In this document: piece after piece, positions 17,801 through 51,050 of the stretch | How positions within the stretch are numbered: the first letter of the stretch is position 1 | Layout: each line of letters opens with the position of its first letter | Assembly (NCBI GenBank): GCA_964016885.1 | Contig: OZ024741.1 | Location: 198,524,001 to 198,588,000 of the forward strand | Length of the DNA: 64,000 bases | DNA from: Eledone cirrhosa | Taxonomy: Eukaryota | Direction: 5' to 3' | The notes under the pieces: generated by a model | The model's input: only the letters and a program-made list of their open reading frames with translations | The model's database searches: none | Told to the model about the DNA's origin: nothing | Position numbers and translations under genes: made by a program

Positions 17801-18534
17801 ACAAGACTTGAAATCATAAGAAATCTAAAATCAAGCAACAAAAGTCAAGATAATTATACCAAATATGTATAGATCTTCACTGTTAAATGTTTTATTTAAA
17901 TATTATTTCTTATAAAAGGTAAATATACTTATTGAGTATTTTGACAATAAACCTAAACAAGTATGTTATTTTTTGGATCTGTAATTATTATCTCTTTCAG
18001 AAAACTAATGTTCTCTAATGTCTAAACAAAGATTGCAAATTTAAGGAGAAAATATCAAGAAGAGTTTTAAATAAAAGTAGTTTTTTATTTTTATTTTTCT
18101 CAAAATTGTATCTCTTTAATATTCAAATTAAGAAACCTGTTGATTTGCTTTCAAACATTCTACAAAGTACAACTTGTTTTATGCTTAACAAATCTAAAAA
18201 TTCTTATCTTAGTGCCAATATCATTATTATTGTAGTTGTTGTTATTATCCTGAAGTAATTGCAATGAGTTTTCCACCAGGATGTTTTGGATATTGCTAAG
18301 TTCGAAAATAACTCATTGTGTCAACATTCCCAGTGGTTCAAAGGCACCAGTAAGATTTCAAATAAACCAATGAATTGTTTGAATAAAAAGTTAAAATTTT
18401 AATAGTACTCTAAGTAGCTTTGGTATATTGCAGTTATAGCAAGTTTAAATTAAAACTTAGAACAAAGAGAATAAAAGGAATAAGTAGAAGACAATTTGTG
18501 CTGAAGGTGGTTGGTATAGTTCAAGCCATGAATA

Positions 18535-18697
18535 TCATTGTGATTTGTCACGGCACTTCTCTAAAAGAATCGACTGTTCCAATTCGGAATCATCTGTTGC
18601 CTGAATTTCAACACCAATTCCCTGAAGTTTTGTCTTTAGAGAAGACTTACTGCTTGTATATACCATTTTCTGTTTTATTGTAGCATTCTCTGGACTC
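18535..18697 (-). CDS. cfl: ADF/cofilin last coding exon ((W)SPENATIKQKMVYTSSKSSLKTKLQGIGVEIQATDDSELEQSILLEKCRDKSQ*)
   Basis: Acceptor ttttcag|G; phase-2 join with the preceding exon gives the conserved Trp; WSPE.A.IK.KM.Y.SSK is the ADF-H signature; TGA at 18535-18537. Not in the ORF track. Confidence 0.93.
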
Positions 18698-25239: not shown

Positions 25240-26545
25240 TGTGCTAGGTGGCCTGAGTCTCTGGAAGAACACCTAAGCAATGGCAATCAGGAATGATAAT
25301 CCTAATTTTCAAAAAGGGAGACAAGAGAGGTTGTTCCAATTACTGAGGGATCTCCTTGTTAAACCTCCCTAGTAAAGTCTATGCTAAGTGTCTGTCAAAG
25401 AGATGCAGGGAGATTGTCGAGTCCAAGCTAGCTGATGAACAGTGCGGTTTTTGCCCCAGATGCAGCACAGCCGACCAAATATTCACACTGCGGCAGGTCT
25501 TCAAGAAATTTCAGGAGTATTGCCAAGATGTATATTCTTGTTTTGTCAACGTTGAGAAGGCATACTACTGCATTCTTTGGGACCTGCCGTAGAAGGCTGT
25601 GCAGGAGTATGGGATCGATGGTCAGCTTCTTGCTGCCCTGATGTCTCTATAAGAATGCTCAATTATTTGTGTTCGGATAAATGATGATAAATCGAAATCA
25701 TTCAATTTGGTAGTCGGACTCCACCAAGGGTGCGTGCTGTCAACTCTCCTGTATATTATTTACATGAACAGGATTGACATGCGCAGCCGGGTTGGAAGTG
25801 GTATCATGACTTGCACTTGATGTTTGATGCCGAATGCTGCATAGCTGGAATGAAAATCAGTACTACGAAAACTGAGACACCCGTCCTCTCAAAGAAGCCT
25901 GTGTAGTGCACTCTACATGTGAATGGAGTTCCATTGTAGCAGGTAGAGAAGTATCTTGGGGTCATGTTCATGAGGCAGGAGGCTGATTAAGTGCAAGAAT
26001 TGCAAAAGCTGGTGCAGTAATGCACCAGCTTTAGCATTCAGTAATCAGAAGAAGGGAGGTAGACGTAAAAGCCAAATTCGCTGTCTTCAATTCGGTTTCC
26101 GTGCCAACCCTTACCTATGGTCATGAATCCTGGGTAATGACCGAAAGAATACAATCGCAAATGCAAGCGGCCAAAATAGAGTTACTCCGAAGGGTCTTTG
26201 GAGTAACATCCCTCAATAAAGTGCATAGCTCAGCAAGTTACTGCAGGTAGAGCTGCTACTTCTCTGAATTGAGAAATCACAGCTCCGATACTATGAGCAT
26301 GTGGTTAGAATGTCTCAGGAAAGAATCGCTGGACAGATTTTAAGGACAAAACCAAAAGGTAGGAGACCCAGGAGTAGACCCCGAGCAAGATGGTTGGATA
26401 ACATCCATGAGCTTGGCAGGTCATGTTTGGGGATTCATCCAGATCAATTGGAGAGGGTTGCTTCTGAAAGAACCCACAGGAGGGAGTGTTTGAGGACTCT
26501 AGCCCCACAACTATCAAGAATAAGTGGGCGAAGATGACAAAAAAG
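25240..26545 (+). mobile_element. RTE LINE family B 3' portion
   Basis: PSKVYAKCL..EQCGFCP..TADQIFTLRQ..CFVNVEKAY; MVRMSQER..GRRPRSRPRARWLD. Confidence 0.88.
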
Positions 26546-27919
26546 AACAACTAGGAATGTGGAATCTTATAAAAAGCTGTTTGAGCAGTATAGGCGTGAA
26601 AAGAGTGTTTTGTTACCATATTCATAATGAACTATACAACTTATGATTTAATTAATGGAAGATTTGGAGGAATTTACTTAAATTATTAATTATTTCATTA
26701 CTAAGACATAACATAAGGTTCTTATATCAAATAATGTTGGAAGGTTTTAGTTTAAATATGAATCTTTAAAAATGGGTGGTTGTATTTCATAAAACCATAG
26801 GCAGTTTTGGACAGGTTAGCATCAAAAGGGTTAAAGAAAGTAGATAATATGGTTATGAATTGACGAAAACATTGTTAGAGTTACTATAAAATATAATTAT
26901 AGATCAAGAAAATTTAAAATGAAATTAATGTAGTTAGAAAACCAAAGCATACTTGAAAAAGTAGATCTATAATATATGAATATAGCAAGTATGGAAAATT
27001 TAAATTGTGTTAAAATAGATAAAAATCAGAGCTTATTGGAATATGTTTAGGTAAATACTAGACTAAAAAAAAAAATAGCTGTGAACAAAGAGTTTAAAAC
27101 TTACCATAAAAAGAAGGCCAGCTTCTGTCTATCCATATCATTATGTTTATATTCTACATCAAAAACTCCGTAGCGGCACTGTTTATCAGCAGCAGCTTCT
27201 TGAAGTTTCTGAACAAAATCTTGGTATGTTTTATCTTTATAAAATAAAATGCAAAAAAATTTGAGTACTTTGTATAAAGTCATTTCAATTTAGCTGAAAA
27301 TAAATATTACAACTGAACAAAGGGCTGAGGGTAAACTTAACCAAAACGAAAGTACTAGAAAGTAAGAAAGAAGATAGGACCCTGATTCCTTCAGAGAAGT
27401 GGCCCTGCTCAATATATAGAAAAGGAGTAGGCATAAATTCTATACGATGTACACAATGTAAATTTGGGATACATAAGAGATGTAGTGTGATAACAGGAAA
27501 GACTTTGTATGTAGAAGATGCACAGGGGTAATCAACAGAAAGAGTATCAGTGATATAAATCTTTTCCAATCACATGAAGGATCCATAGAAGTGATTGATA
27601 GCTTCTGCTACCTAGGTTACCTAATTAGCAGTGGTGGAAGGTACTCCAAGAGTATAATAGCTAAATAAGGATAGGATAGAAGAAATTTTCAGAGCTACTC
27701 CCACTGTTGACAGCAAAAGGCTTCTCACTATGTACAAAAGGATGGTTGTACAACTGTGTGAAGTGTGATGCTCTATGGTACTGAAACATGGACAGTGACT
27801 GCAGAGGACATGCGTAGACTGGAGAGAAATGAAGCAACCATGCTTCATTGGATGTACAATGTAAATGTAAGAGAAAGGCAGATCTTGGATGAACTGAGGT
27901 AGAAACTGGGTTTAAGAGG
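26469..27919. repeat. Left arm of a ~1.4-kb near-identical inverted duplication (contains cofilin exon 27105-27234)
   Basis: Reverse complement matches 35152-36573 with scattered substitutions and two small indels; the ORF track shows twin ORFs on opposite strands. Confidence 0.95.
27105..27234 (-). CDS. cfl: ADF/cofilin internal exon ((N)KTYQDFVQKLQEAAADKQCRYGVFDVEYKHNDMDRQKLAFFL(W))
   Basis: Acceptor tttataaag|, donor TG|gtaagt; phases 1 and 2 match both neighbours; CRYGVFD and KLAFFLW are cofilin motifs. Confidence 0.93.
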
Positions 27920-28145
27920 AAGAGAGAAGACTGTTGTGATGTGCATGGATGATGATTGTTGGGTGAAAAAGTGCCAGCAAATCCCAGTAGAAGTAAACGA
28001 AGGAAGACTTGGACAGAGCTGGTAAGAGCAGATTTCAAATCACTGAGACTCACAGAGGAGATGATGAAAGAATGCAGTGAATGAAGAGATGCTGTGCAAC
28101 CCATGCAGGCATGGAAAAACAGATGTAAAAATAAGATGATAATGT
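27315..28145 (+). mobile_element. RTE LINE family A 3' fragment with Cys/His finger
   Basis: KGLRVNLTKTKV, KWPCSI.RKGVGINSIRCTQCK..IHKRCS, DSFCYLG; (gat)n tail. Confidence 0.85.
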
Positions 28146-29164
28146 TGGTATTACATATATAGCAGTATACAAAAATAACCAGAAAAAAAGCATTGGAGGG
28201 GAAAATATTTTGATGATCAATAAAATAAGATAATCATGTTATTAAACATTACAGTTGCGAAATTCACTAAAGTATGGCAGAATCAGAAAAATTGGATAAA
28301 ATGCTTTATGATACTTATTCTATCTCTTTACCTTCTAAGTTCAAATCCTACTGATGTTGACTTTACCTTTTATCCATCCAGGGTCGATAAAATACGAGCC
28401 AAGTAATCAACTTTCCCCTCCCCACATAATTGCTAGCCTTGTACCAGAAGTAGAAACAATTATTAGTTACAGTTTATGAGTTTCTACTGTACCACCAGAT
28501 GTAGTTTTGTGTTCCTGAAATATGTGCAGCATTGCATATATTGACCCATGTATAGTATACTGTATCAATTGTCTTGCGCTACACATGTGGAAGTAAGGGC
28601 TATTTTAGAGCTTGCTGCCCTGAGGAGCTGCAATATCAGAGGCGAGAGAATGACAAAGACTAAGTCCCAAAAGTTTCTGTTTTCACAATACCACTAGTTG
28701 CAACATCAAGGATAACCAAAACATTTACCTCATCCTCAGAAAAAAAAGCCAATGGTTATGAACAGTAGTATCACCCCATCATCCTGCAACAGTGGAAAAC
28801 TGTTGGAGGTAATGTAAAAAGTAGAAAAATGACCCTAAAAAATTTACTCCCAACAGAAAGCTTGCAGAAGCAACAGAGGTTCATAACCTCTTCTAGAAAA
28901 AGTAAAAATCAAGAAGTCAACATGTTTGGAATCCATGAAGTTTACAGTGATGGATTTTCTGAATAACATGTTATAAGAGAATGGAACTAAGAAGGTGCTG
29001 GTTTGCAAAGAGATAACAGTAAAATATAAAGAACCCACAAAAGGTTTACACCAACAATCTATTGGCAGCCGTATAAGAGCAGTGAGCCTCTTCATTCCCA
29101 CTTTGATACTCAAACTGCACACGAAAACATCCAGGGTGAGTCACTTCAAATACTACAACAAGAA

Positions 29165-29325
29165 CAGGTAGTGGGGAGTGTTGTGGGGGTACCCTGATCC
29201 AAGCTGGGTAAACAATATGTACCAGGGAGCAGGTGGTAGTCTTGTGTGGGTACACTGATCCAACCCAGGTCAACAATATGTACCAAGGAGCAGGTAGTGA
29301 TGATTATTGTGGGGGACCCTGATGA
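29165..29325. repeat. Degenerate ~60-bp tandem repeat (2.5 copies)
   Basis: caggtagtg..gtggg..ccctgatccaa..ggt.aacaatatgtacca.ggag repeated. Confidence 0.7.
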
Positions 29326-31114
29326 TGATAATTATCTCTGCTCCTCCTCCTAATTTTTATAAAACTTCACCATGCATCCTCATGTGGGTTATTTGTATCA
29401 CCTTTATAACAAGTTGTCAGGGTTTGATTTCTGGGCTGGGTTATGTGCTGTGTTCTTGAGCAAAACACTTCATTTCATGTTACTCAGCTGAAAATGAATA
29501 CCAGCAATAGCTGGGGGCTTAACCCTGCAATGGACTAATATCGTATCCAGGAGAAAGACTTGAACTCTCAGTTGCTTAACACCATGAGACTGGGATAAGC
29601 ACTGACCAGATGAGCTTCTTGGCTTGAGATAGACTTTAGACTTTATAACAAGTCTATTGTATGAATGACTGGGTTGATGGTAGAATACTAGTACTAGAAA
29701 TATTATTATCATTATTAATATAGAGTGGCAGAATGGTAGAGTGCCAGACTAAATGTCAAACAGTAATTATATTTGTTTTCTTATATTCTGATGTGATCAG
29801 GCAGTGAATGCAGAGTTGTTAGAATGTTGGATAGAAAGTTTTGCGTTATTTGTTTTGGCGCCCTGAGTTCAATCCTACCAAGATCACTTTTGCCTTTCAT
29901 CCTTTCGAGGTTAATAAGAAAAAAGTACCAGTCAAGTACTAGTGTCAATTTTTCTTCCTACATCTTTTTCACTTTGTCTCTCTCCTTCTCTGGAAGGAAT
30001 CGGCTGTGTTCAAACCTGAAAAAGGAAGGTGTTCCAACAATTTTAAAGTACCCAAGGCAGCACCTCCATAATCCCATCAGGAGTTACGGGTCCATACATA
30101 CATGACATACATTCTGATGTGAAATTATTCAAGAATCAATTAGCTTTTCATCTTTTTGAGATCAACAAACTAAGTACCAGATAGGTACAGAGGAAAGTCA
30201 GTTTATTTGATTATACATGACACTCTGTATCAGCATTAAGAAATTATCAATCTCAATTATAATGCATTCCTTTTATAAGGCATATGTTTTTTGTAATTTA
30301 TATTTTAAATACTAGAATTAGATTTTTCCATAAATGCTACAATGCTTCATATTTGAGTCATCAGAAAAAATTTGATTCGGAAGATTTAATCATCAACATG
30401 GTAGCAAAAATGGTTATGAAACTTTTCACTGTTAAAGTAATAAAGGTATGTCAAATAAAAATATAGCTAACCATTAATATACAAAATATCAGTCACAGTA
30501 AGCAGAAGACAATTTTTTTGAAACATTTTCATAGATATCTCCTAGTTAGTATAGGATGCAAGAATCTGCATCATCAGATATTAGTATTGATTGCTCCTCA
30601 GTATTATTTCAATCAGATATTTGTTTTAGTGATCTGCAATGATTAAAATGTCAAGTTACTCTTCTTGACACCAGCATCAGCAAACATATGGATAAATACA
30701 CACATTACATGACCCTGTGAGTACACAGGAGAAACTCCAGCATAACAAGATTCAAACTTGGCCTTCATAATAAAAAAAAATTATATATATATCTACGATA
30801 TATTTGAGAATGTATGTGTGTATGAAAGACTCTGAAATAGTGCATCCTAAAGAAAAATGGATTTAATTTTCAAAATCTGCGTCCTAAGGAGAAAGGTTTT
30901 GGGCACATGGAGTTTCTTAATTCTGAAAAGAATAAAAGAAAAACAAAAGAAAAACAGAAAATAGCAAAGATGCTCACACTAAAGTACACAACAAGCCACT
31001 GATACCACTTCAACATACAGCTCCACTGAGTAAATTTCCATAGAAACCACCTTGCGGACTATCCATGGAGAATAAATAACAGGAGATGAGGCACGGAAGA
31101 TATATTTCATTTCC

Positions 31115-31490
31115 CTATAAAACAAACTTGCTAGTTTCAATTCAGTATTCGTGCCTATCCTAACCTATAGTCATGAATCTTGGATAGTGACTGAAGGAAT
31201 ACAATCATTAATACAAGTAGTTGAAATGAGGTTCCTCCAGATAGAGCCACTGCATTAAGAGATCAGAGCTATGGTACAACAGACTCATAGTTAAAATGTC
31301 TAAAGAAAGAATTGCAGATTTGCTTTTATGAGCAAAGCCAACAGGCAAGAGACCTAGAGGTAGACCACAAGGAAGATGGTTGGATAACATCCATAACCTC
31401 AGTGGATCTCATTTGGGGATGGCTGCTTCTGATATGACCCTCTGGAAGGCGTGTCTGAGGACTCTGCTCCCACAACCCCCAAGAAGAAGA
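31115..31490 (+). mobile_element. RTE family B 3' fragment whose (gaa)n tail abuts the cofilin donor site
   Basis: acctatagtcatgaatcttgg..ggcaagagacctagaggtagacca..aagaagaaga. Confidence 0.8.
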
Positions 31491-31498
31491 TTACTTAC

Positions 31499-31634
31499 TC
31501 TTGTCAGCTCGCTCCTCCACAACAATTTTCGATAAATCTGGGGATAGTCTGAATATGACATATCTGTGTTTATGCTTCAATTTGATTTCTTGAAAAGCAT
31601 CTAATACTTCCTCTGCAACGGTTACCCCAGATGA
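31499..31634 (-). CDS. cfl: ADF/cofilin exon encoding SSGVTVAEEVLDAFQEIKLKHKHRYVIFRLSPDLSKIVVEERADK
   Basis: Acceptor tttcag|TCA (phase 0, consistent with the ATG-only first exon common in ADF/cofilin genes), donor A|gtaagt; (M)SSGV N-terminus with the regulatory Ser. Confidence 0.93.
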
Positions 31635-32136
31635 CTGAAAATAAAAATATAAAGGATAAGTTTTTGTTTTTTTTAATTTTGTAACTAGAATAAATAAATC
31701 AAACAATTCTGGCGTCAGCATTTTGAAAAATATGTATCGTAAGAGGTGACTAAAATGGTTGGTATCGGGAAGGGCATCTGGGTGTAAAAACGATGATGAA
31801 GATAGAAAATTTAAAAAAAATAACAGTTAATAAAAATGATGGAAATAAAAACAGCACACAGCCATGGTGAACTTTCATCCTTCTAAGACCGATAAGGTAC
31901 CAGTCAAGTATTGGAGTTAACACCCTTCCCCTTAAATTAATATTTACGAAAAACAAATTTGAAAAATATATGTCAACTGAAACAAGGAGTTTCAACAAAA
32001 CTATGTTCCAAGGCATTCCAGTTGTGTAAAGCAAACCTAGGACCATATCCAACCTGTTATTTTAAGTGTGTCTCCTTCATTGGCTTCCAGACATTAGGCA
32101 GACTATAAAAAGCAATAAAGAATAATTGCAGCAATT

Positions 32137-32645
32137 ATCATCATCATCCTTTTTACATCTGTTTTTCCATACTTGCATGGGTTAGACAAGTCTTTTCCAG
32201 CACAGCTTCCCTTTGTCATCATCTCTTTGAGGTCGGCTATCATCACCTCTGCCCAGGTTTTTAACCATGGGCTTCTACTACAGCTTCCTTCCACTGGGAT
32301 GTCTTCACCCAACGATTATTCTCCATGTGTATCACATGTTTATACCAGTGCAGTCTTCTCTCTTGCACACTACATCTGATTCTGTTTGTACTCAGCTTTT
32401 CTCTCAGTTTGACACCTCATCATTCATGCACACTAACATTGCCCCTCCAACAGAGCATGCATACATCATTTCTCTCCAGTCCCCTCTGCATTTACTGCCC
32501 ATGTATGTGTCACTGTCACTCATAAAGAAAATCCCTTTGTTAACAGTAGTGGTAGCTACCTAAACGTTTTTGAACATATTCTGATTCTAGTGACTATGCT
32601 TTCAGAGCAATCCTTCCCACTGCTTATTAAGTCACCTAAGTAACA
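32137..32645 (-). mobile_element. RTE family A 3' fragment
   Basis: IPVEGSCSR..KTWAEVMIADLK; (cat)n tail on the plus strand. Confidence 0.75.
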
Positions 32646-33060
32646 GAAACATTAGTATGTATTTTATTGGTCCTGGAAGGGTAAGAAGGAAAAGTTAACC
32701 CAGGAGTATTTAGACACAGAATTTAGAAAGATGGAACTAAATAGTAAAAAGCAGTTAGTTAATCCAATATTCTAATTCAACAACATATGAATGACAACCT
32801 ATATATATATATATAAATAAATATACACACACACTGAAGTGTGTATCTGGTTTAGAATAGATACACTGTATCCTTAGTGTTATAAAAGGCAACTGAAAGG
32901 GTCAGTGTCTAGAAAAGCATTCAGTTGTAAAGCACTGTCTCAAAACATTCCATCCAGCCCATGCCAGCATGGAAAAGTCATCATAGACTCAATTATCATC
33001 ATCATCATTTAACGTCTATCTTCCACGGTAGCATGGGTTGTTATATATATATATATAGCG

Positions 33061-33220
<160 letters not shown>

Positions 33221-33472
33221 AAACAGATAGACAACACCATTAGAAGCAATATTAAAATGTTTGCAAGTAATTAAATAGTATTTAATTCTATTTTTTTTAT
33301 TCTTTCATTCTTTTAGAGGCTTCAGTCATTAGTCTGTGGACATGCAGGGACACCAGCATAAAGGGATTTAGTTGATTACTAGCAAGACAGTCACCCAATC
33401 AATCTTACTTCAAGTGGGACAATTCCCATCTAACCCATGCTAGCGTGGAAGATAGACGTTAAACGATGATGA

Positions 33473-33512
<40 letters not shown>

Positions 33513-34515
33513 CATCATCGTTTAATGTCTATCTTCCATATGTATGTATATATACATATTCCTTTTTTTAAATTTAATTTGTCCTTTAGTGAAATAATAT
33601 GAAGAAATATAATACAAAATAGTTTTAATTTTTAATATCCTGTAATGATTTAGCAGAAAATGTCTAAAAAGAGGCTTGTTAATTCAAATGTGCAGTTAAC
33701 TAAAGTAAAGATGTAAATTTTTCATGTGATGCAGTCATAGTACTTTTAAAGAATGTCTTGCTAATGTGGTACAGGACGTTTTAATAGACATTATCCCCAA
33801 CCCTCCCACCTCTAAAATGCATGAATGTCCCAACATCGCATTCCTCCTCCTATAAATATGAAAATTTGGGGCAGAAAATGTATTATTTTAATAAATATAA
33901 GTTTTGAAGAAATGACAATGAAAGGAATTAAAATAACATTATCAGAAATATGCACAATATAGGAGGTAGGCAATGGTCTAAAATAGAAAAATCTGAAATA
34001 ATCTGTTAGCCTTTAAAGGAGATGTAAACAGCAACAATTTAGTGGTGAGAGAGTTGGAAGGGGAATTACTGAAAGCAATGGCATCAGTGAGGGAAGATGA
34101 GCAGCATTCATAACTGTTATTGTTGCCAGCATACACACAGACACATACAGTTTTTCAATAAGCAAATAATACAAAGAGAACTTTGAATGAGTAAGCCTAG
34201 TTAGTAGCAGCTTACTTTGTAAGTGTTGAGAGACTACAGCATTACTTCAAATTTAGTATGCTAGAGAAATAAATACACAAGCTGCAGAAACTTACCACAC
34301 TTTTAAAAATTCACCCAGCATTCCTATACAGACTTTTTTGAATAGGCAGCAGGCTGTATATTTTTGGGAGAAGGAAAACATGCTGGCTATGATAATCCTG
34401 CCTTTCCTAAAGATATTTACTCTAGTAGAAGTGAATTACTTGAATGGGGAACTGAAACTACATTATGAATTAAACCTGCCAGTAACTTATCACATATTCT
34501 CATGATATACATTAC

Positions 34516-34721
34516 AGTATTGGTGACTTAAGGTGAAAAATCCTACTCAACAAAAATATCAAATAAATACAGTAAATTAGAAACACACATCATCATCATT
34601 GTTTAATGTTCATCTTCCACGTTAAACGAAGATGATGAAGATGATGATGTGTGTTTCTAATTTACTGTATTTATTTCATATTTTCATTGAGTAGGATTTT
34701 TCACCTTAAGTTACCAATACT
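34516..34721. repeat. Fold-back inverted repeat, ~80-bp arms
   Basis: agtattggtgacttaaggtgaaaaatcctactcaa...acacacatcatcatc mirrored by gatgatgatgtgtgt...ttgagtaggatttttcaccttaagttaccaatact. Confidence 0.9.
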
Positions 34722-34746
34722 CACTTATTACTATTTATAACTTAAA

Positions 34747-34896
34747 GGGCGGTGAATTGGCAGTATCGGTAGAGGGTCGGACGCCATGCTTTCCAGCATA
34801 GTTACGTCCCTTTACCGTCTGAGTTCAAATCCCGTTGAGGTTAACTTTGCCTTTCATCCTTACGGGGTCGATAAAATAAAGTACCAGTAATGTACT
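34747..34896 (+). mobile_element. tRNA-derived SINE (same family as 9103-9552; further copies e.g. 39236-39411 minus, 60563-60663, 62030-62265)
   Basis: A box, B box and central domain nearly identical to the 9.1-9.5 kb copies. Confidence 0.88.
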
Positions 34897-35151
34897 AATC
34901 AACTTATCAATCCATACATATACACAATATATCAAAGTTGCATTGCAGTGTAATTTTAATATGTAACATCATTTTTATGTCCATTTTTCTACGCTTGCAT
35001 GGGTTGGACATCTCTCCACTCGTTATATCCTCTGTGAGTCTCCTTTACTGCAGCTTCCTTTTAGTGAGATTTCCTGGCACTTCTTCACCCAACGATCATC
35101 ATCCATGCACATCACAATACTGTCTTCTCTCTTGCACACCACTTCGGATCC

Positions 35152-36573
35152 CTCTTAAACCCAGTTTCTACCTCAGTTCATCCAAGATCTGCCTTTCTCT
35201 TACATTTACATTGTACATCCAATGAAGCATGGTTGCTTCATTTCTCTCCAGTCTACGCATGTCCTCTGCAGTCACTGTCCATGTTTCAGTACCATAGAGC
35301 ATCACACTTCACACAGTTGTACAACCATCCTTTTGTACATAGTGAGAAGCCTTTTGCTGTCAACAGTGGGAGTAGCTCTGAAAATTTCTTCTATCCTATC
35401 CTTATTTAACTATTATACTCTTGGAGTACCTTCCACCACTGCTAATTAGGTAACCTAGGTAGCAGAAGCTATCAATCACTTCTATGGATCCTTCATGTGA
35501 TTGGAAAAGATGTATATCACTGATACTCTTTCTGTTGATTACCCCTGTGCATCTTCTACATACAAAGTCTTTCCTGTTATCACACTACATCTCTTGTGTA
35601 TCCCAAATTTACATTGTGTAGAATTTATGCCTACTCCTTTTCTATATATTGAGCAGGGCCACTTCTCTGAAGGAATCAGGGCCCTATCTTCTTACTTACT
35701 TTCTAGTACTTTCGTTTTGGTTAAGTTTACCCTCAGCCCTTTGTTCAGTTGTAATATTTATTTTCAGCTAAATTGAAATGACTTTATACAAAGTACTCAA
35801 ATTTTTTTGCATTTTATTTTATAAAGATAAAACATACCAAAATTTTGTTCAGAAACTTCAAGAAGCTGCTGCTGATAAACAGTGCCGCTACGGAGTTTTT
35901 GATGTAGAATATAAACATAATGATATGGATAGACAGAAGCTGGCCTTCTTTTTATGGTAAGTTTTAAACTCTTTGTTCACAACTATTTTTTTTTTTTTAA
36001 GTCTAGTATTTACCTAAACATATTCCAATAAGCTCTGATTTTTATCTATTTTAACACAATTTAAATTTTCCATACTTGCTATATTCATATATTATAGATC
36101 TATTTTTCAAGTATGCTTTGGTTTTCTAACTACATTAATTTCATTTCAAATTTTCTTGATCTATAATTATATTTTATAGTAACTCTAACAATGTTTTCGT
36201 CAATTCATAACCATATTATCTACTTTCTTTAACCCTTTCGATGCTAACCTGTCCAAAACTGCCTATGGTTCTATGAAATCCAACCACCCATTTTTAAAAA
36301 TTCATATTTAAACTAAAACCTTCCAACATTATTTGATATAAGAACCTTATGTTATGTCTTAAGTAAATTCCTCCAAATCTTCCATTAATTAAATCATAAG
36401 TTGTATAGTTCATTATGAATATGGTAACAAAACAAACTCTTTTCACGCCTATACTGCTCAAACAGCTTTTTATAAGATTCCACATTCCTAGTTGTTCTTT
36501 TTTGTCATCTTCGCCCACTTATTTTTGATAGTCATGGGGCTAAAGTCCTCAAACACTCCCTCCTGTGGGTTCT
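35152..36573. repeat. Right arm of the inverted duplication
   Basis: Near-identical reverse complement of 26469-27919. Confidence 0.95.
35827..35956 (+). pseudogene. Inverted orphan copy of the cofilin internal exon
   Basis: AG/GT intact; one visible substitution (GAT to AAT, D to N, at 35841); no plus-strand copies of the other cofilin exons in the window. Confidence 0.85.
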
Positions 36574-37756
36574 ATCAGTTTTTCCTTCCTGTTTGTCTGC
36601 CTGTTATCTCACTACATCTCTTGTGTGCTCAAGATGTACATTGTGTACATCATATAGAGTTTATACCTACTCCTTTTCTACATATTGAGTAAGGCCAATT
36701 CACTGAAATAATATAATAAAGCAAAGAATATATATAATTATTTTTATCTCCACTTTCCCATGTTGGCATGGGTTTAACAAAACTTCTTAAGGTAGTTTTT
36801 CTATGACCAAATGCTCTTCCTGACACCTGTCTATCATCATCATCATTTAACAACCTTTTTCCCAGGTAGCAAAGGTTCAATGGGTCATCAGCATACATTA
36901 TTTTGGATTGGCAGTCCATGTTTTTTTTTTCTTCTTTGTTAAGTGTGGTGTAGCAAAACCAACCAACATGAGACACGAGGGTAAACCCCAAGCAAGATGG
37001 TTGGTTAACATCCTTGAGCTCAGCTGCTCTCACTTGGAGATCCAGCCAGATCAATTGGAAACAGTAGACATGTTTGAGTACTGTGCCCCCACGACCATCC
37101 CAGGAGTAAGTGGGCAAAGAAGAGAAGTAGAAGAGAGAAGTGTGGTGTATATCGATAGCCTCTATTAAGCTGTAAGCTATGGAATGCATTGTTTTTATGC
37201 ACAACATAAACGTCTGTGCTTGCTTTAAAAAGATGTGTTTGCCATGAGAGGCCATCAGTGAGAGTGGGGCATGGTATTGTGGAGTGGAGCAAATGTAAGA
37301 ACTCTTCTAATTGGGTGCTGTTCATGTTTAAGAGTGGCAAGGTGCAGTAATGTTTTAGTTCCATACATATACAATAAACAAAGTAAAAGAACAATAAAGA
37401 TAAATCAAGCAGATCTTTCACTGATTTGGTTTCAATCATTCAACTGGTCTACAGCCATACAGTTAAAGAATTTCAGTGATCATATCAATGTCAGTATTTA
37501 TCAATCTCTATTTGCCAAACTACTGTTACAGGAGAAAAGCAAGAACACACATACCCACTAAATATGAACATGTTTCAAATTATATATTTAAGCAGAGTTG
37601 CAATTATTCCTTTTCAAAAGATTGTCAACTTTCCCAAGCAACATCAAGCATTACTGCTGATACACATGTTCCTACTATATCAATCGTTAAACTAATATAT
37701 TTTTCAATGTACTGTATTGTTTTCGTTTACTTTTTTGTATACACACACATTATATC

Positions 37757-38533
37757 ATCATCATCATTTTACGTCCGCTTTTCCTTGCTTGCAAGGGTTG
37801 GATGGGTCCTATTCAGCACAGCATCTCTCCACTTGTCACGGTCCTTCGTCATCTCCTCCGTGAGTTTCAGCGATCTGAGGTCTGCTCTCACCACCTCCGC
37901 CCATGTTTTTTGTGGTCTACCTTTACTGCGTCTTCCCTCCACTGGGACTTCCTGGCACTTCTTTACCCAGCAGTCATCCTCCATGCGCATCACATATCCA
38001 TACCATCTCAGCCTTCTCTCCTGCACACCACAACTTATCCCTCTTATACCCAGTTTCTTTCTCAACTCGTCTATGCTTGGTCGTTCACGCACATTGACAT
38101 TGCACATCCAACGGAGCATACTTGCTTCATTTCTCTCAAGCCGTCACATATCTTCTGCAGTTGCTGCCCATGTCTCACTACCATGCAGCATCGCGCATCT
38201 CACACAGGCATCATATAACCATCCTTTTGTACGCAGGGAGAAACCCTTCTATGTCAAGAAGAAACAGCTCCCTAAACTTCTTCCAACCCGTCCTTATTCT
38301 AGATACTATGGCCTCAGAACACCCCCCTCCCATGCTAATCTGATCACCTAGGTACCGGAAGCTATCAACCACTTCTATAGAACCCACCTGCATTGGAAAA
38401 ATGAGTCTATCATAGCGATTACTACTGCCAACTTTCCCTGTACATCTACTGCATATGTAGTTTTCCCTACCTGTTATTTGCCTGCTATCCAACTACATCT
38501 CATTGTGTACCCAAGATCTGCATTGCGTACATT
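37757..38533 (-). mobile_element. RTE family A 3' fragment (best preserved copy)
   Basis: YICSRC..VVDSFRYLGDQI..RIRTGWKKFREL; MLRWMCNV..ERRLRWYGYVMR..GRRSKGRPQKTW; (gat)n tail. Confidence 0.92.
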
Positions 38534-38607
38534 TTATATCTTATATATTTATATATAAATATGCCTATCAAGCATGATTGTCTGTAACCATCAGTATATA
38601 GTCTTTA

Positions 38608-38806
38608 ACCCTTTAGCATTCACATTACTCTATATATACTATTGTATTTTCACGGTAAAGGCTTTATCTCACATAATATCAAATCTATGAGAATTTGATA
38701 TTTATTTTGAAAACAATAGCTTAACATCAATATGAGTGGCTGGTTACAGCTTGTTTGACCAGAAAGAGATGAGAGCCGGATATGGCTGGTTTAAATGCTA
38801 AAGGGT
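38608..38806. mobile_element. TTAA-type (piggyBac-like) MITE
   Basis: ttaa|ccctttagcatt...aatgctaaaggg|tcaa; inverted homologue of 57482-57701. Confidence 0.7.
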
Positions 38807-40879
38807 CAAGTGCAGGTAGGTATTAAAAATAGGAAAAATTTACCAAAAAAGTATTTTATAAGGTGATCTATGAATTGTACAGAAAATCCTTTATGAAGAT
38901 AAGGATTAACAGTGATGAAATGTTTTAAGAAGCATGTTTGGTTATTACTTCCAATGTTAGGTAAAAAATATTTTACAGGTTTTGTAATTACAGATTTTAC
39001 TTAAATGTAATTTAGTAAGAGGTTCTCCTTTTGTCAAGGTGGTGAATAGGCAGAATCACTAGAATGTCAGATATAATGGTTTGCGGTATTTGTTCCAGCT
39101 CTCTTCTCTCTGAGTTCAAATCCCGCTAGGGATATTGTAACAAAAGGTTACCAGCAAATTTGGGGGAAAGAGAAAGTTGATTAAATTAACCCCAGTATTT
39201 GACTGGTGCTTTAGTGACCCCAGACATATTTCAAATAATTGTTTCTACTTTTTTGGCACAAGGCCAGCAATTACTCAGTACATTACTGGTACTTTATTTT
39301 ATTGACCCCATAAGGATGAAAGGCAAAGTTAACCTCGGCGGGATTTGAACTCAGAACGTAAAGGGACGTAACTATGCTGGTAAGCATGTCCTACCCTCTA
39401 TCGATACTGCCCAAATAATGATTTCAGATTTAGGGACAAGGCCAACAGTTTTGAAGGAGGGGAAAATTGATTAAATCAACCCGTGTGTGTTTATTTTATC
39501 AACCCAGTAAGGATAAAAGGCGAAGCTAACTTCAGTGAGATTTGAAATCAGAATATAAAGGGCTGTAACTGTATGCTGCAAAGCATATTGTCCTATGCTC
39601 TACCGATAAATCCACCACCCTTCCATACATCAAATAATATTAAATGCTGGTCTCTTGTATTTTCTATATTTAGTATGGGGGGAGGGGGGAACGTGTCTTT
39701 GATGAGAACATTCCTTGTTGGTTGCTGCCTTATTATTTTGTTTTATATATTTTAGCCTGATGGAGAAAAAGTTCCATTAGTCTTTCCAAAGTAGACATAT
39801 TTCTTTACATATCATCTTGGTATGAAGGAGGGATTATGTGTATGTTTCAAAAATACCATATCATGATATTATATCATTCCTTTCATTACCATATTTCTAA
39901 TGAAAGACACTGCCTATGATTTTGAAAATAATTGTTTCTACTTTTGGCACAAGGCCAGCAATTACCCAGTAATGAAGAATTTCGTTATATAATAATACAA
40001 CTAAATTTGTTATTATTAAGATGGTGTTTGGAAGGTTTTTAGATAATATAAATACTGTAAAACAAGCAGTTTTGTATTGTAGAACCAGGAATAGTTTGAA
40101 GGAGTCTAGTGTCAAAAAGTGTTGAACATTGAGTGCTTATTTAGGCATGGTATCATGAAAAAGAAGACACAAAAACAATGATGATGATATCAACAACAAT
40201 GAATTTAAAGTGGGTTGGTGAGCTGACTTACTAGAAGCTTTAACATATACAGTACAATGTTTGCCAATTAATATATTGATTACTCACACTGGCACAAGGC
40301 CAATAATTGTAAAGAGAGAGTATAGCTGATTTAATATTTCCCAGTAGATGACTGACAAATATCTTATTAGTCATATAGGGATGAAAGGCAAGGTCAACTG
40401 TATCAGGGTTTAACTAGGAATATAAAAAGATCTAGTGTTCTCATCAAACAAGTTAATGTCTACAATGAGCAAAAGTAATTATCACAAAGACAAATTGTTG
40501 TTACAGCTCACCTATGTATGATTCTTGAATATTTTAATGAAAGATATCTACTGATGAGTACACTAGTCCAAATAAATAATTTTATAATTTTTTCTAAAAT
40601 TTGCACAAGGCCAGAAATTGGGGGGGGGGGGGGGGATAAGTCGATTATATCAACCCTAGTACTTAACTGGTACTTTATTATATCAACCCCAGAAGAATGA
40701 AAGGAAAAGTTGATTTTGGTGTAGTTTGAACACTGAACATAAAGAGCTACAACAGATACTGCAAAGATTTTTGTCTGATCTAACAATTCTAACAATCCAA
40801 CATACTAGAAATTGAGAAAAGGCTAATTCACAATTTATTTTTTAATTAATATATTACTCATCATCATTTTTTAGCAGTT

Positions 40880-42785
40880 TTGCTCTGCTAGAGAACGGGT
40901 CGCAGGTAGTGATACAGCCACCAGATATGATGGTTAATTGCGATAAAAGCGGGCACCTGCCAGACGAATAAGCAACCCCCAGACCAATAGTGGTAAACTA
41001 CCAGGAAAAATGAAACAATGGGTGACACCTGCAGCTCTCAAGAAAACACTTACAACCCAGTGATGTATATATGATGAGGCGAGTAAAGGCCACCTCTAAA
41101 AAAGCCATTGCGCATCTGAGAAAAGTACCAGACTGGTGGTTGGCGCGAATAAGACCACCAATGCCGCAATATGGTGAGAGGTAACAAAAAGGATCATATT
41201 GCATTATCCTTCGCACTGGTTGACACGGCACACATTCAGACAATAGTAGAAAGACTTGTTCAAAAAATGTATTGTAGTCTCCATTTCATACTGTAAAAAC
41301 TGGCAATGGACCTGTGACCTATCTAGGGAGGCAGGAGATGGATGCACAAAGAATGCTTATCCTGAGACACCAAAGAAAGTTTGGAAGGAAGCAAACCATA
41401 ACAATTGGAACCTGGAACATCACAACCCTTACAGGTAAGGAACAGGAAATAGAGGAGGAGGCTAGATGCTACTGGCTAGATATAATTGAGGTTTCCTCAA
41501 CAAAGTTCCATGGCTCTAGTACTGTAGATTTGGATGGAAACTCCACTATTCAGGTATGGTACCAGAAATGACTGAACAAGTGTGAGTGGGGATACTCACA
41601 ATCTCCAGGCAGTCAGAATGTGTTATCGACTAGATGCCATTAGGAGGGAGGATTATACTCTTGAAGTTTAGGCTGAAAGATAGGTCTCTGTGGGTTGTGC
41701 AAGTTTATACACCAAAAAGGGAGTTTGAATACAGGTCCTTCCTTGATGAAGTCACTGTAGCATTATATGTAATTAAGACCGAATCATATATCCTAATGGG
41801 AAACTTCAATGCACATGTGTACCAACATGTGCATTGACTACGTGACAAAGAAAGGTGTGATTAGAAGGAACAGCAATCCTGATGTAAATATGAATGAAGA
41901 GACCTTATTAGACTTGTGTTCTAATAATGGGCTCTCTATTGTGAACTTCTTCCAGTACAAATATATCCATAGATACTCATGGTACAAGGGGAATCAGGGA
42001 CAGAGATCAATAATTGATTTTGTTATTGTCTCTGATCTCTTTGATTCTGTGTTGGATGCTTGTGTTAAGAGAGGGGCTGAGCTGTCAACTGATCACCATC
42101 TAGTTATCTGCAACTTGAGATGACCTAAAGCCAAAAAAAGTTCACAAAACTGGCAGGTCCAGCTCAACCTACAGGATAAAGTGGGAAGTGTTGGTGGATA
42201 AGGAAGTCAGGACCATGAATGCAGATATTGTTACATCCAAATTCAGAGAATTTCCTGAGCAAACTGAGGATGTTGAGACGGAGTGGAGACTGTCCAGCTT
42301 GGCAGTTTCTGCTTCAGCTGTTAAATGCTGCAGGCGAAAGCAGCTTGGTGTGGCACCAGATGGCAGGAGGACCCTTGGTTCAATCAAGAGATAAAGGATG
42401 CCATCCAAGCAAAGGAGGCCTACAAAGCTTGACTTGAAAATAAGTCCTCTTTCTTGTACTTGCAGTACAAACAGACATGAAGAATCATCTTTAAAGTAAC
42501 ATTACTTGATAGAGTACGTAGCTCAGAGATCGGAGAGTTGCTCCAGATAGAGCCGCTACTTCTCTGAATTTAGAGATCACAGCTCCGATATTATGGGCAT
42601 GTGGTTAGAATGTCTCAGGAAAGAATCACTGGAGAGATTTTATGAGCAAAACCAACCAACAAGAGACCAGGGATAGATTCCGAGAAAAATAGTTGGATAA
42701 CATTCATGAGCTTGGCTGGTCTCGTTTGAGGATCCAGCTAGATCAATTGGTTTAGGTTACTTCTGATAGGATCTGCTAGGAAAAT
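40880..42785 (+). mobile_element. RTE family B copy with 5' region and APE endonuclease, internally deleted
   Basis: IGTWNITTLTGKE, LDIIEVSSTK, VVQVYTP, ILMGNFNAHV, RSIIDFVIV, LSTDHHLV, then a jump to the 3' end at ~42495. Confidence 0.88.
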
Positions 42786-43159
42786 TCAGATCCTCGTGCA
42801 TACATCAGAAATTATCATTATTGTAATTAATGCTTTTGATACTAAACAACCTAAAAATGCTCTGGCTTTATCACACAAAACTGAGCATTTCATACATCTA
42901 TTAAAAGATCCCACCGTAATTGTATTTTTTAAATTTATATTTAGATATAATGTTCCAAACATCAGCTTACTAATGAAATAATTAGTTATTTTATTAAATT
43001 CTTCCAAATTCTTGATAACTTTGAAAATTAATTGCCAGACATTAACTATACAACAACGTAAGAGTTAAAAAGGGGAGATGGTAGAATCGGTAGAACATCG
43101 AACAAACTGCTTTATGATATGTTGTGCCTTCATTGATTTTAAATTATATTAGAATTATT

Positions 43160-43920
43160 TTCAAGGTGAGAGTCAGATTCCGCCAAGGGTGTGTACTGTC
43201 ACCTCTCCTGTTCATTATTTTCATGAACAAGATTGACATGTGCAGCTGGGTTGTAACTGGCATTACAACTGGCAGGTATAAAATCAGTTGGATTACTTAA
43301 TGACAGAAAGTTGCACACGATAGGTTTGATGCCAAGTTCTGCATAGCTGGAATGAAAATCAGTGCTGCTAAAACGGACATTCGTCGTCTCAAGAAGCCTG
43401 TGCAGTGCACTCTACATGTGAATGGAGCTCCACTGAAGCAGGTGGAGAAGTTAAGTATCTAGGGACCGTGTTCATCAGTGATGGAAGGCCGGTCATGAAT
43501 CTTGGGTAATGACCAAAAGAATACGATCGCGAATACAAGCAGCCGAAATGGGGTTCCTCCGAAGGGTCTTTGGAGTAACGTTACTTGATAGCGTGTGTAA
43601 CTCAGAGATCGGTGAGTCATTCCAGGTAGAGCCACTACTTCTCTAAATTGAGAGATCACAGCTCCGATACTATAGGCATGTGGTTAGAATGTCACAGGAA
43701 AGAATCCCTGGACAGATTTTACAGGCAAAACCAACCGGCAGGAGACCCAAGGGGAAGACCCTGATCAAGATGATTGTATAACATCTATGAACTTGGCTGG
43801 TCCTGCTTGGGGATCCAGCCAGATCAGTTGGAGATGGTTGCTTCTGACAGAACTTGCTGAAAAGAGTGTTTGAGGCATCTTCCCCCATCACCCTCCCAGG
43901 AATAAGTAGGGGAAGAAGAT
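43160..43920 (+). mobile_element. RTE family B 3' fragment
   Basis: Homologous to 25720-26545. Confidence 0.85.
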
Positions 43921-44639
43921 ATATGGAAGGGTGATGAGGAAGGAGGATGATGATAAAGAAGTATAGAGGAATGGGAAGAGGTTCATAGGGATTGAATGGG
44001 GTGTATTGTCAGTGTGTATGGAGGGGTAGAGAGATTCAGTAGCACTAGGGAGGCTGTCATTGACTGACTGAAGAGTATAATACTTGAACTACCTATCTCT
44101 AGCCCTCACAGACCATAGTCAATACCATTGGCCACTCAAACCCAGCCTATCACTCACTCCAAGGAGCAAACAGAAAAAATGAATAGGAGAATAACGCAGT
44201 TAACTTTGTTGCTTACAGTTTTATCATAAATATTGTGATAAAAGAACTTATCATCATCATTGAATTTGTTCAACTATCATGCCACCCATCCTGATACTGC
44301 ATGGCTTTCACAAAGTCAGCAGAGCAACATCCTTTGTCCATTCAGAACTGTTTTTGCATGACATGATTTGTGTATATCCATATCATACTATCCAGAGGAG
44401 TATGTCACTAATGAGTTTGTGTTCTGCTCTCCAGCAATGTCCGGCAAAGTGCATGAATCTCACTCTAATGACATTAGAAAGATCTTACATGTATCTATGA
44501 AGTTAAACAACTGAAATATATTGAAGGCAATGAAACAATCTTCTCTAGCATGGCAAACAGCCAATGAAATTAGTGGCAGGAAAACAAATGTCAAAACTAA
44601 AAGAAGGAACAAAAAAATAAGTGAAAAGAATATTTCTAG

Positions 44640-45460
44640 AATCTTCTATGTAAATCCCCAAGTTGTTTCAGACATTTAGAAATTGCTAAAAAGATATCCT
44701 GAAAAAAGGGTTGGTGACCTTAAATATAAAGGTGATACCAGCCTGTTGGAGAATGAATTTAAAAGCAGTTAAAAACAACTTGATGCACTGGCCTTTAAAG
44801 GCTACAGAAGTAGGTCTGTAATTTAACAAAACAAAAGCCAAGGTGAAAAATACTGACCATGCTAATCCTAGATGGGACAACACAAAGATGGTTGATGATT
44901 TTCAGTATCTAGGGTCTTTTGTCAATGATACTATAAAATGTTTCAAATATAGACAGCCAAAAGGTTGGACAACCTTTTGGAAACTGAAAAATCTGAAAGA
45001 TGAGTGCCAACACCCCACTATAAATCAAATTTTTTAAAATATCAGTCTTCTATGTTTTCATCTACAAAACTGAGTCACACACCATTACAAAGACATTAGA
45101 GAAAAAATTAATGCCTTTCAAACTCGGTGTCTGAGAATCTTATTTAACATCAGCAGAACAGACCATGTCACCAATCAATATGTATACAAGCAAATAAACA
45201 CCTGCCCACTAGTTAACAGTGATTTATTGGCAATTATCATTCGTTGGACATTCTATTAGATGAAGCAAGAAAGATTTGATTCAGCAATACTGTCTGTATG
45301 TCCTATAACATGGGAAAAGAAGAAGAGGCAGACAGAAACCAAGCTATGTGAAGCATATTACTGGTTGCCTTCGTCATGACGTCAGACTCTAAGAGAATGA
45401 AATATGTGAAGTTGCCAGGCATGGAGATCTGTTGCTGAGGTCATCTCTTGTTTGTCCATA
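44640..45460 (+). mobile_element. Decayed LINE RT/thumb fragment (RTE-like, third family)
   Basis: VGL..N.TK, VDDFQYLGS, GWTTFWKL, NAFQTRCLRIL, GKRRRGRQ remnants. Confidence 0.7.
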
Positions 45461-45632
45461 TTAAAATGAGACAGAGCTGACCCATCATCTTCACAGCAAA
45501 ATTGGTGATTTTGCATTAAATGAACTCCGACATATTGAAAAAGACCCAAAACGAGGTAGCTGGTTCTGATAATATACCATCATAAATCTTGAAGACAAAG
45601 CCATTAAACAATATCTTCCTTCAATTTTGTAA

Positions 45633-46871: not shown

Positions 46872-47498
46872 TACAGTATAAAATATAAGCCCAACTGAAA
46901 AGTGAACTCTGTGTTGAATTCTCCCATTTCTCAAAAATGGGAGAATTAAAAAAAAATAAAATTAGAAAAATAAATAAACCAAAAAATAAATAAAATTTAA
47001 GTATGGTTAAAAATTACAGAGGATCACTCTTCCTGCAATAACAGCAAAAATTTACAACAAATTGTTACTGACCATACAGAGACAAATCGAGAAACCAGTG
47101 TATCTTCATTTTTAATTAAATTTTTTTATATCATTAAACTATTTGATACTACTGGTGAACATGGTTCCCACTGACTAATCATCAACCTTAACAGCTGTAG
47201 AAATGAGTCGCAATATCATTGGTGCTAAGCTGTATCGGCCTTTGCCTTTCCCCTGGACAACATCGGTAACGTTGAGAGGGGAGACTTTTATGTATGGGCA
47301 ACCGCTGGGCTTCCACGAAAACACATTGCCCAGACATACGCCACAGAGGGGAACTTTCTAGGTGTAAATCCCATGGTTATTTGTAACCAGGGGTGGTCTT
47401 TACTCTATATACATAAATATAATAATGCGTGCTTACATACACATTTCTCACAGCTCCAGCTAAAATAAGCCTTTACTGTTTGTACGGATATGAATTTA

Positions 47499-50947: not shown

Positions 50948-50988
50948 TAATATAGATGAGATTCTACAGGTAGTCCTGTAGAATCTCA

Positions 50989-50997
<9 letters not shown>
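50948..50997. repeat. Perfect 23-bp-arm palindrome between (TA)n tracts
   Basis: taatatagatgagattctacagg-tagt-cctgtagaatctcatctatatta. Confidence 0.92.

Positions 50998-51050
<53 letters not shown>

What the first reader, a model, noticed from the sequence alone, without database searches (positions are those of the whole stretch)
26469..36573. Cofilin carries an antisense copy of its own exon 3 and flanks: a potential 1.4-kb pre-mRNA duplex
Seen: 35152-36573 is a near-identical inverted copy of 26469-27919, covering the whole 130-nt coding exon, both splice sites and roughly 0.65 kb of each flanking intron. The ~7.2-kb loop between the arms holds exon 2. Inference: if exon 1 lies above 36.6 kb, the pre-mRNA can fold into a long duplex that hides the exon 3 splice sites, acts as a complementary sequence for ADAR A-to-I editing of a coding exon (widespread recoding is established in coleoid cephalopods), favours back-splicing of exon 2, or yields endo-siRNAs. 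The one exonic difference (35841) would be a G-U wobble in the minus-strand transcript. This would be an exon-specific regulatory duplex created in one step.
Basis: partly seen in the sequence, partly recalled or inferred. Interest (0 to 1): 0.8.

Follow-up and report, generated by a model that had tools for sequence, protein, structure and literature searches.

The report
Inverted exon copy in cofilin gene
An octopus-like genome carries a real backwards 1.4-kb copy of a cofilin exon and its flanks, likely young, likely inside the gene's first intron and likely left by DNA repair between two retrotransposon relics; it could pair with the original in unspliced RNA, but the RNA contigs seen show normal, unedited mRNA, so it is probably a harmless scar.

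Summary
35151-36573 is an inverted copy of 26469-27919 (16 substitutions in 1418 columns, 5 indels) covering cofilin exon 3. A short-read DNA contig bridges the outer junction and depth fits two copies. Exon 1 was not located by reads, but CpG depletion, strand-biased mutation and the lack of a usable ATG exon below 35.2 kb put the copy in intron 1, so a duplex is possible.

Origin: the copy replaces about 395 nt of a LINE relic homologous to the LINE at the donor's end. One junction lies in homology, the other in a few shared bases, as in homology-primed repair copying.

Function is unsupported. The RNA run splices exons 2-3-4 with no consensus edits in exon 3 or in intronic arm contigs. Skipping either exon shifts the frame. 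The exon copy decays at the flank rate. The G-U excess (11 of 13) fits the gene's mutation bias (p=0.07). Thirteen other local inverted pairs lie in 1.27 Mb sampled. Minority editing, skipping and small RNAs remain untested. This scan noted similar intronic antisense exon copies on other DNA.

The parts
26469..27919 (.). Left arm: the original (donor) segment, with the end of intron 2, exon 3 and the start of intron 3
   Evidence: 10 of 12 polarisable changes fall in the other arm
35151..36573 (.). Right arm: inverted copy, antisense to the original in the cofilin transcript
   Evidence: outer junction bridged by DNA contig X1 record 7
27105..27234 (-). Cofilin/ADF (actophorin-like) exon 3, 130 nt
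   Evidence: spliced to exons 2 and 4 in X4 record 13
35827..35956 (+). Copy of exon 3 with both splice signals intact on the + strand; one change, at 35841
31499..31634 (-). Cofilin exon 2, 136 nt, in the loop between the arms (3517 and 3580 nt from them)
16325..18697 (-). Cofilin exon 4: coding part 18535-18697 plus 3' UTR (lower end inferred from the length of X4 record 17)
27370..28150 (+). Donor-side LINE relic (3' part of a reverse transcriptase + PHD-finger non-LTR element); the inner breakpoint 27919 lies in it
36574..36712 (-). Recipient LINE relic, 5' remnant, 84% identical to the donor LINE; cut by the outer junction
34960..35150 (-). Recipient LINE relic, 3' remnant, 86% identical to the donor LINE beyond 27919; about 395 nt of this relic are missing between the two remnants
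26119..26537 (+). Relic of a second repeat family that holds the donor's outer breakpoint (26464-26469)
31635..64000 (-). Inferred intron 1, running past the window; best exon-1 candidate ends at G000:C2:198602854 (L004:4854), not verified by reads

Best explanation
The inverted copy of cofilin exon 3 is real, and is likely a young, selectively neutral scar of DNA repair lying in the gene's first intron. SHOWN: two relics of one LINE family lay in opposite orientation about 7 kb apart, on either side of exon 2. At the recipient site about 395 nt of the relic are gone and the 1.42-kb copy stands in their place. One junction is inside LINE homology; the other joins unrelated sequences that share 2-4 bases. 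INFERRED: a break or stalled fork in the intron-1 LINE let one end invade the homologous intron-2 LINE. Synthesis ran through the LINE, exon 3 and 636 nt beyond, and the strand rejoined the other end by microhomology (one-sided invasion or template switch). The copy has since decayed like intron DNA. In RNA the arms could pair only while intron 1 is still attached when the left arm is transcribed. That probably happens in a minority of nascent transcripts and may give incidental editing or a little skipping or exon-2 circle. The bulk mRNA seen is exon 2-3-4 and unedited.
For: Junction anatomy: the recipient's outer remnant aligns to reference-copy positions 67186-67315 and its inner remnant resumes at about 67710, while donor and recipient relics are 84-86% alike; shared bases at the outer junction; family has RVT_1 and PHD domains. 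Direction: 10 of 12 polarisable changes are in the copy, p=0.04; 6 substitutions and 3 small indels could not be polarised. Youth: 1.1% between arms against 4.5% (81 of 1794) in exon 4/UTR and 7-8% in two intron pieces between this species and organism B. Neutral decay: 1 substitution in the exon, 1.5 expected; 3 events in exon +/-50 nt, 3.3 expected; no long conversion-like block, p=0.34. Common class: 13 other inverted pairs of 400 nt or more, 90% or more alike, within 15 kb, in 1.27 Mb outside the window (one 27.5-kb array left out); 7 of the 13 are mostly not young transposon pairs; 2 are 800 nt or more and 98% or more alike. RNA: X4 record 13 splices exons 2-3-4 with only the left-arm letter at 35841; three intronic contigs (538 nt) show only left-arm letters in the rows displayed. 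In intron 1: CpG o/e 0.24-0.35 from 16.3 to 64 kb against 0.63-0.75 outside; coding-strand transition bias 75:45 in introns 2-3 and 42:25 in 36.6-50 kb; the 3 ATG|GT sites below 35151, of 132 scanned, all score below zero as donors.
Against: Transitions between the arms favour G-U pairs 11 to 2 (p=0.02 against 50:50; p=0.07 one-sided against the gene's own 61% bias), so weak selection for pairing is not excluded. The RNA evidence is one run of unknown tissue held as contigs, which drop minority variants, and heavily edited reads would fail to assemble. X4 depth is zero in three arm bins (35991-36116, 36432-36494). Exon 1 is not shown by reads. The strand bias is reversed in 31.6-35.15 kb (1:8) and in 64-78.8 kb (20:31), and not significant in 50-64 kb (32:22). 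Organism B had no cover over most of the exon copy (35865-36179), so absence in the relative is not shown. The inner junction is not bridged by a listed contig. Of 7 other pairs inspected, several adjoin homologous or simple-repeat flanks at one end, but none was shown to have this LINE anatomy.
Confidence: 0.72

Rival explanations
1. The copy has been co-opted as a regulatory complement: in some tissue (most plausibly neural) it pairs with exon 3, drives ADAR recoding or unproductive skipping, and so tunes cofilin dose or sequence under selection.
For: The copy covers the whole exon and both splice sites. Predicted duplex: 1406 Watson-Crick pairs, 11 G-U, 6 mismatches, about -2470 kcal/mol against about -570 for the arms folded alone. 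32 of 45 adenosines in exon 3 would recode. G-U excess 11 of 13. Depth fits a homozygous copy in the one DNA sample (16.9 and 13.6 observed; 18.1 and 15.4 expected). Octopus has an exceptionally high hyper-editing rate (PMC5625713, passages). 21% of captured human intronic duplexes span one or more exons (PMC13019944, results part 1). BLCAP uses an upstream-intron complement (PMC10404624, passages).
Against: No consensus edit in exon 3 or in 538 nt of intronic arm contigs. No conservation of the exon part over the flanks. Most derived changes, including 23- and 9-nt deletions, are in the copy and break pairing. Skips are out of frame. [quoted passage not shown] Background strand bias explains most of the G-U excess.
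Confidence: 0.1
2. The copy lies upstream of the transcription start, so both arms are never in one RNA and no duplex forms.
For: Exon 1 was not seen in reads. No listed X4 contig carries right-arm letters or bridges a junction. No long X4 intron contig was listed in 31.6-37 kb (the table is cut). Strand bias is reversed in 31.6-35.15 kb, 1:8.
Against: The orthologues begin MSSGV and are 143 aa like the predicted protein, so exon 1 ends in ATG. The three ATG|GT sites below 35151 score -2.4 to -6.8 against 4.7 for the gene's known donors (approximate recalled weights). X4 record 13 carries 477 nt upstream of exon 2, and no piece of that size is listed in 17-37 kb although 296-nt pieces are. CpG depletion and strand bias continue to 50-64 kb.
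Confidence: 0.08
3. The right arm is an assembly artefact: the other haplotype of the exon-3 region placed backwards.
For: 1.1% divergence is within a plausible allelic range (recalled). The inner junction is not bridged by a listed contig. X1 may be the assembly's own sample. The one RAD run laid gave no cover of the unique part.
Against: A short-read contig bridges the outer junction with right-arm letters. Depth 16.9 fits two copies, not 11.3. The junctions cut a LINE relic in a coherent way with 395 nt lost. Derived changes are concentrated in one arm.
Confidence: 0.03

Closest known systems
Homology-primed templated insertion (one-sided invasion / long-tract gene conversion / FoSTeS-MMBIR template switch; PMC4888836, passages; the term 'one-sided invasion' is recalled, its passage was not displayed)
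   Same: Nearby template copied in inverted orientation; one junction in repeat homology, the other in a few shared bases; loss of sequence at the recipient; donor intact; introns retained.
   Different: Germline event inferred from one genome; the donor happens to include a whole coding exon of the host gene.
Young partial, inverted, adjacent gene duplicates of C. elegans (PMC2728529, passages: median span 1.4 kb, about half partial or chimeric, newborn copies often adjacent and inverted)
   Same: Size, inverted orientation, proximity and partial nature.
   Different: Here the copy sits inside the parent gene and has no promoter or second exon of its own.
Inverted Alu pairs that loop out or circularise exons (PMC13019944, abstract and results part 1; PMC6376117, passages)
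   Same: Complementary arms in the introns on both sides of exon 2, a long upstream intron, exon 2 as possible back-splice acceptor.
   Different: Arms are 1.4 kb and 99% alike, about 3.5 kb from the splice sites, and one arm contains exon 3. Exon 2 (136 nt) is shorter than the 169-253 nt medians of single-exon circles. No skipping or circle was seen.
ADAR editing-complementary sequences (BLCAP upstream intron; GluA2 Q/R downstream intron; PMC10404624, passages)
   Same: Intronic antisense complement of a coding exon, upstream as in BLCAP.
   Different: Two introns away, near-perfect and long rather than short and imperfect (recalled feature), no editing shown, no conservation shown.

Membership tests
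Homology-primed templated insertion | One junction inside homology between donor and recipient | tested here: met
   27919/35151 lies in two relics of one LINE, 86% alike beyond the junction
Homology-primed templated insertion | Other junction blunt or with microhomology | tested here: met
   2-4 shared bases at 26464-26469/36574-36578, unrelated sequence beyond
Homology-primed templated insertion | Recipient loses the tract homologous to the copied one; donor stays intact; not a spliced retrocopy | tested here: met
   About 395 nt of the recipient LINE missing; both intron flanks copied
Homology-primed templated insertion | Empty ancestral site seen in a relative or another haplotype | tested here: inconclusive
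   Organism B contigs do not cover the site; one B contig joins 27673 to 28183 at the donor side
ADAR editing-complementary sequence | Complement of the exon in the same pre-mRNA | tested here: inconclusive
   Complement shown; same transcript inferred only
ADAR editing-complementary sequence | A-to-I changes in the paired exon | tested here: not met
   At consensus level in one RNA run: X4 record 13 matches exon 3. Minority editing is not visible in contigs
ADAR editing-complementary sequence | Selection on the pairing | tested here: not met
   Exon part decays at the flank rate; G-U excess p=0.07 against background; low power
ADAR editing-complementary sequence | Deleting the complement abolishes editing | not testable with these tools
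   Needs a minigene
Exon-looping or circle-promoting inverted repeat pair | Inverted arms in the introns flanking one exon | tested here: met
   Arms 3517 and 3580 nt from exon 2, if intron 1 extends as inferred
Exon-looping or circle-promoting inverted repeat pair | Skipped or back-spliced RNA observed | tested here: inconclusive
   Only the 2-3-4 path is listed; joint tables are cut and contigs drop minor paths
Hairpin endo-siRNA locus | Small RNAs from both arms | not testable with these tools
   No small-RNA run offered
Haplotype mis-assembly | Single-copy read depth and no reads across the junction | tested here: not met
   Depth 16.9 against 11.3; outer junction bridged

The most novel reading that the evidence does not exclude
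A single repair event created a ready-made editing and splicing complement for a whole cofilin exon, and in the heavily editing coleoid nervous system it now recodes or silences cofilin in one lineage. The thousands of similar young inverted copies in the genome would then be a standing source of new, species-specific recoding clusters, and this locus would catch the birth of one.
Probability: 0.1. Interest if true: 0.65.

Novelty: new member of a known kind. Interest (0 to 1): 0.27.

Why it matters
As a neutral scar it is ordinary, though its breakpoints read unusually clearly. It has some value as a natural test: a 99% complement to a coding exon of a well-expressed gene, in an animal group with very high ADAR activity, asks whether a duplex across one splicing event forms in time to edit or mask an exon. 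A positive result would show how new recoding clusters can arise in one step. A negative one would bound how far complementary sequences act across introns.

Tried and rejected
No RNA holder was listed on record; X4 was recognised as RNA only because its contigs stop at and join exon borders. Organism B gave no cover of 35865-36179, which proves nothing. X4's excess of T>C places (18 against 9 A>G) is matched in DNA runs (19 against 13 in X1), so it comes from paralogous repeats, not editing. Depth 7.6-7.7 of two intronic arm contigs, against 3.6-5.0 for seven other intron contigs, might mean both arms are transcribed, but a third arm contig has depth 3; not used. A homologue search with exon 2 alone found nothing. 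The G-U excess as proof of selection was rejected after measuring background bias; 2 of 14 pairs in the first survey, this one included, reached p<0.05. Gene conversion between arms: no sign. Retrocopy origin rejected, as introns are copied. Use of the copy as a + strand exon: the only X4 contig at 35841 has the left-arm letter. Rfam: 0 matches in 16-64 kb. A first genome-wide-sample BLAST timed out, and a hard-masked rerun missed known pairs, so one search is the count used. The repeated 31-mer test on the exon-1 candidate was uninformative. No paper on this locus was seen in searches (listings only). The one supplement file held for PMC8382921 has no cofilin or actophorin entry; full editing-site tables of coleoid studies were not seen and may bear on whether this gene is edited in other species.
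Full report
OBSERVATION. The inverted repeat is there. 26469-27919 pairs with 35151-36573 over 1418 columns with 16 substitutions (98.9%) and 5 indels, around a 7231-nt loop. A genome search with the exon-3 region scored 2 candidates and matched both, the two arms. The gene is an ADF/cofilin on the minus strand: exon 2 at 31499-31634, exon 3 at 27105-27234, exon 4 from 18697, giving 143 aa with an added start codon. Pfam Cofilin_ADF matches all three exons and the copy. The two homologues found for exon 3 are 143-aa actophorin-like proteins of Argonauta hians (86%) and Octopus vulgaris (83%), both starting MSSGV, so the genome is octopod-like and exon 1 supplies only the ATG (inference).

IS IT REAL? 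Five of 8 listed runs were laid. In DNA run X1, one contig spans 36359-36659 with no substitution and bridges the outer junction. Another, 35672-36343, carries left-arm letters at depth 16.9. From 10 single-copy contigs (mean 11.3, SD 1.75) two copies predict 18.1 and one copy 11.3. X1 may be the assembly's own sample, so this is a different kind of data but not an independent animal. No listed contig bridges the inner junction. The RAD run did not cover the unique part.

IS IT IN THE TRANSCRIPT? Not shown by reads, but likely. (a) Of 132 ATG|GT sites between 31.6 and 164 kb, 3 lie below 35151 and score -2.4 to -6.8, against 4.7 for the gene's own donors (weights approximate and recalled). (b) RNA contig X4 record 13 has 477 nt upstream of exon 2, and no piece of that size is listed in 17-37 kb although 296-nt pieces are (the table is cut). 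(c) CpG o/e is 0.24-0.35 from 16.3 to 64 kb, 0.67 from 64 to 78.9 kb and 0.63-0.75 outside. [quoted passage not shown] (d) Repeat copies show a coding-strand excess of C>T plus A>G over G>A plus T>C in introns 2-3 (75:45, p=0.014) and in 36.6-50 kb (42:25, p=0.014), and none in four outside regions. It is weaker in 50-64 kb (32:22) and reversed in 31.6-35.15 kb (1:8) and 64-78.8 kb (20:31). The best exon-1 candidate ends at G000:C2:198602854: A at -3, 8 CpG in 153 nt, a CCAAT box upstream (motif label recalled), near the CpG boundary; its donor is only moderate (0.28), 19th in the ranking. All stronger candidates are also above 36.6 kb.

ORIGIN. Both ends of the copy sit in one relic of a reverse transcriptase + PHD-finger retroelement family ('LINE' is my label from those domains). 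Against a third copy, the recipient's outer remnant covers positions 67186-67315 and its inner remnant resumes near 67710, so about 395 nt are missing. The donor has an oppositely oriented relic of the same family, 84-86% alike. The inner junction falls in this homology, at a 17-nt gap in the donor. The outer junction joins unrelated sequence sharing 2-4 bases. This is the anatomy expected if one broken end invaded the neighbouring relic, copied 1.45 kb and rejoined by microhomology; template-switch models give the same product (PMC4888836, passages). Ten of 12 polarisable changes are in the copy (p=0.04), including the 23- and 9-nt deletions and the Asp-to-Asn change; 6 substitutions and 3 small indels could not be polarised. 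Arm divergence (1.1%) is well below the distance to organism B (81 of 1794 in exon 4/UTR; 14 of 182 and 16 of 233 in intron pieces), so the event likely postdates that split. One B contig also joins 27673 to 28183, lacking the stretch with the inner breakpoint. B's recipient site was not covered.

HOW ORDINARY? In six blocks (1,336,300 nt after leaving out one 27.5-kb array) there are 14 inverted pairs of 400 nt or more, 90% or more alike, within 15 kb: this one and 13 others. Seven of the 13 have 30% or less of the arm matched closely elsewhere in the sample, and 2 are 800 nt or more and 98% or more alike. Scaled up, that is about 4,700 (570-17,000) comparable young pairs genome-wide, so some will cover exons by chance (inference). 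Porath et al. found an exceptionally high share of loci able to form long, near-perfect dsRNA in octopus (PMC5625713, passages). Young worm duplicates are often adjacent, inverted and partial, with a 1.4-kb median span (PMC2728529, passages). This scan's earlier notes list several intronic antisense exon copies in other genomes, mostly read as relics (unchecked).

FUNCTION. For: the minus-strand duplex would have 1406 Watson-Crick pairs, 11 G-U and 6 mismatches, about -2470 kcal/mol against -300 and -267 for the arms alone; 32 of 45 exon-3 adenosines would recode. In human cells 7.9% of captured intronic duplexes span one exon and 13.2% two or more (PMC13019944, results part 1 of 2). BLCAP editing uses an upstream-intron complement (PMC10404624, passages). 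Eleven of 13 transitions give G-U rather than A-C (p=0.02). Against: the gene's background gives 61% of that class (148 of 243), so p=0.07. The exon copy has 1 substitution against 1.5 expected, and exon +/-50 nt has 3 events against 3.3. The RNA contig splices exons 2-3-4 at depth 283 with only the left-arm letter at 35841. Three intronic arm contigs (538 nt) have 6 differences from the right arm; the 4 displayed are left-arm letters and the other 2 equal the number of remaining arm differences in that interval. Skipping exon 3 gives a 53-aa product and skipping exon 2 a 27-aa product. Exon 2 is short for a single-exon circle (medians 169-253 nt; PMC6376117, passages). [quoted passage not shown] Limits: one RNA run, tissue unknown, contigs only. 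Minor isoforms and partial editing are dropped, and heavily edited reads may not assemble, so incidental editing of the arms in nascent RNA remains plausible (my estimate: about even).

VERDICT. Real, clearly built, and of a common kind: a LINE-primed inverted repair copy that happens to cover an exon. It could work like an inverted-Alu pair or an editing complement, but failed the two membership tests that could be run for the latter. Neutral scar 0.72, co-opted regulator 0.10, outside the transcript 0.08, artefact 0.03. Interest 0.27. No paper on this locus was seen in searches (listings only); searches served for background.

Noticed in passing
window 16000-64000: CpG o/e is 0.15-0.36 in 11 of 12 4-kb bins (0.58 in the bin with a young repeat) against about 0.6-0.9 on either side, with a coding-strand mutation bias; probably the gene-body methylation and transcription footprint, usable to map gene extent without RNA.
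   Followed up: yes
L004:4854 (G000:C2:198602854): Candidate ATG-only exon 1 of cofilin, 47 kb upstream of exon 2, preceded by a CT-rich tract; not verified by reads.
   Followed up: partly
G000:C2:198458693-198459520 and 198464907-198465726: A second local inverted copy, 828 nt, 98.4% alike, 5.4 kb apart, mostly unique sequence, about 90 kb from this one.
   Followed up: partly
G000:C2:300118707-300121770: Inverted pair of 1354 nt, 99% alike, 363 nt apart.
   Followed up: partly
G000:C6:30044050-30070130: Array of about 4.1-kb units, 99.9% alike, with two halves in opposite orientation.
   Followed up: no
G000:C19:9283904-9284200: A distant ADF/cofilin paralogue, 37% identical, matching residues 1-91 in one stretch.
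   Followed up: no
window 34516-34721: A 206-nt self-palindrome (83%) between exon 2 and the copy; could form a local hairpin in the inferred intron 1.
   Followed up: no
window 53502-53620: A 119-nt self-palindrome (86%), possibly a miniature inverted-repeat element.
   Followed up: no
window 47600-48660: Looks like a decayed mariner-type transposase (label recalled from reading; not tested).
   Followed up: no
window 1-3400 and 6300-8530: Two decayed retroelement-like stretches with long open frames or CpG-rich sequence downstream of the gene (not tested).
   Followed up: no
window 16325-18535: The 3' UTR is about 2.2 kb and 95.5% alike in organism B, more than the intron pieces (92-93%).
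   Followed up: no
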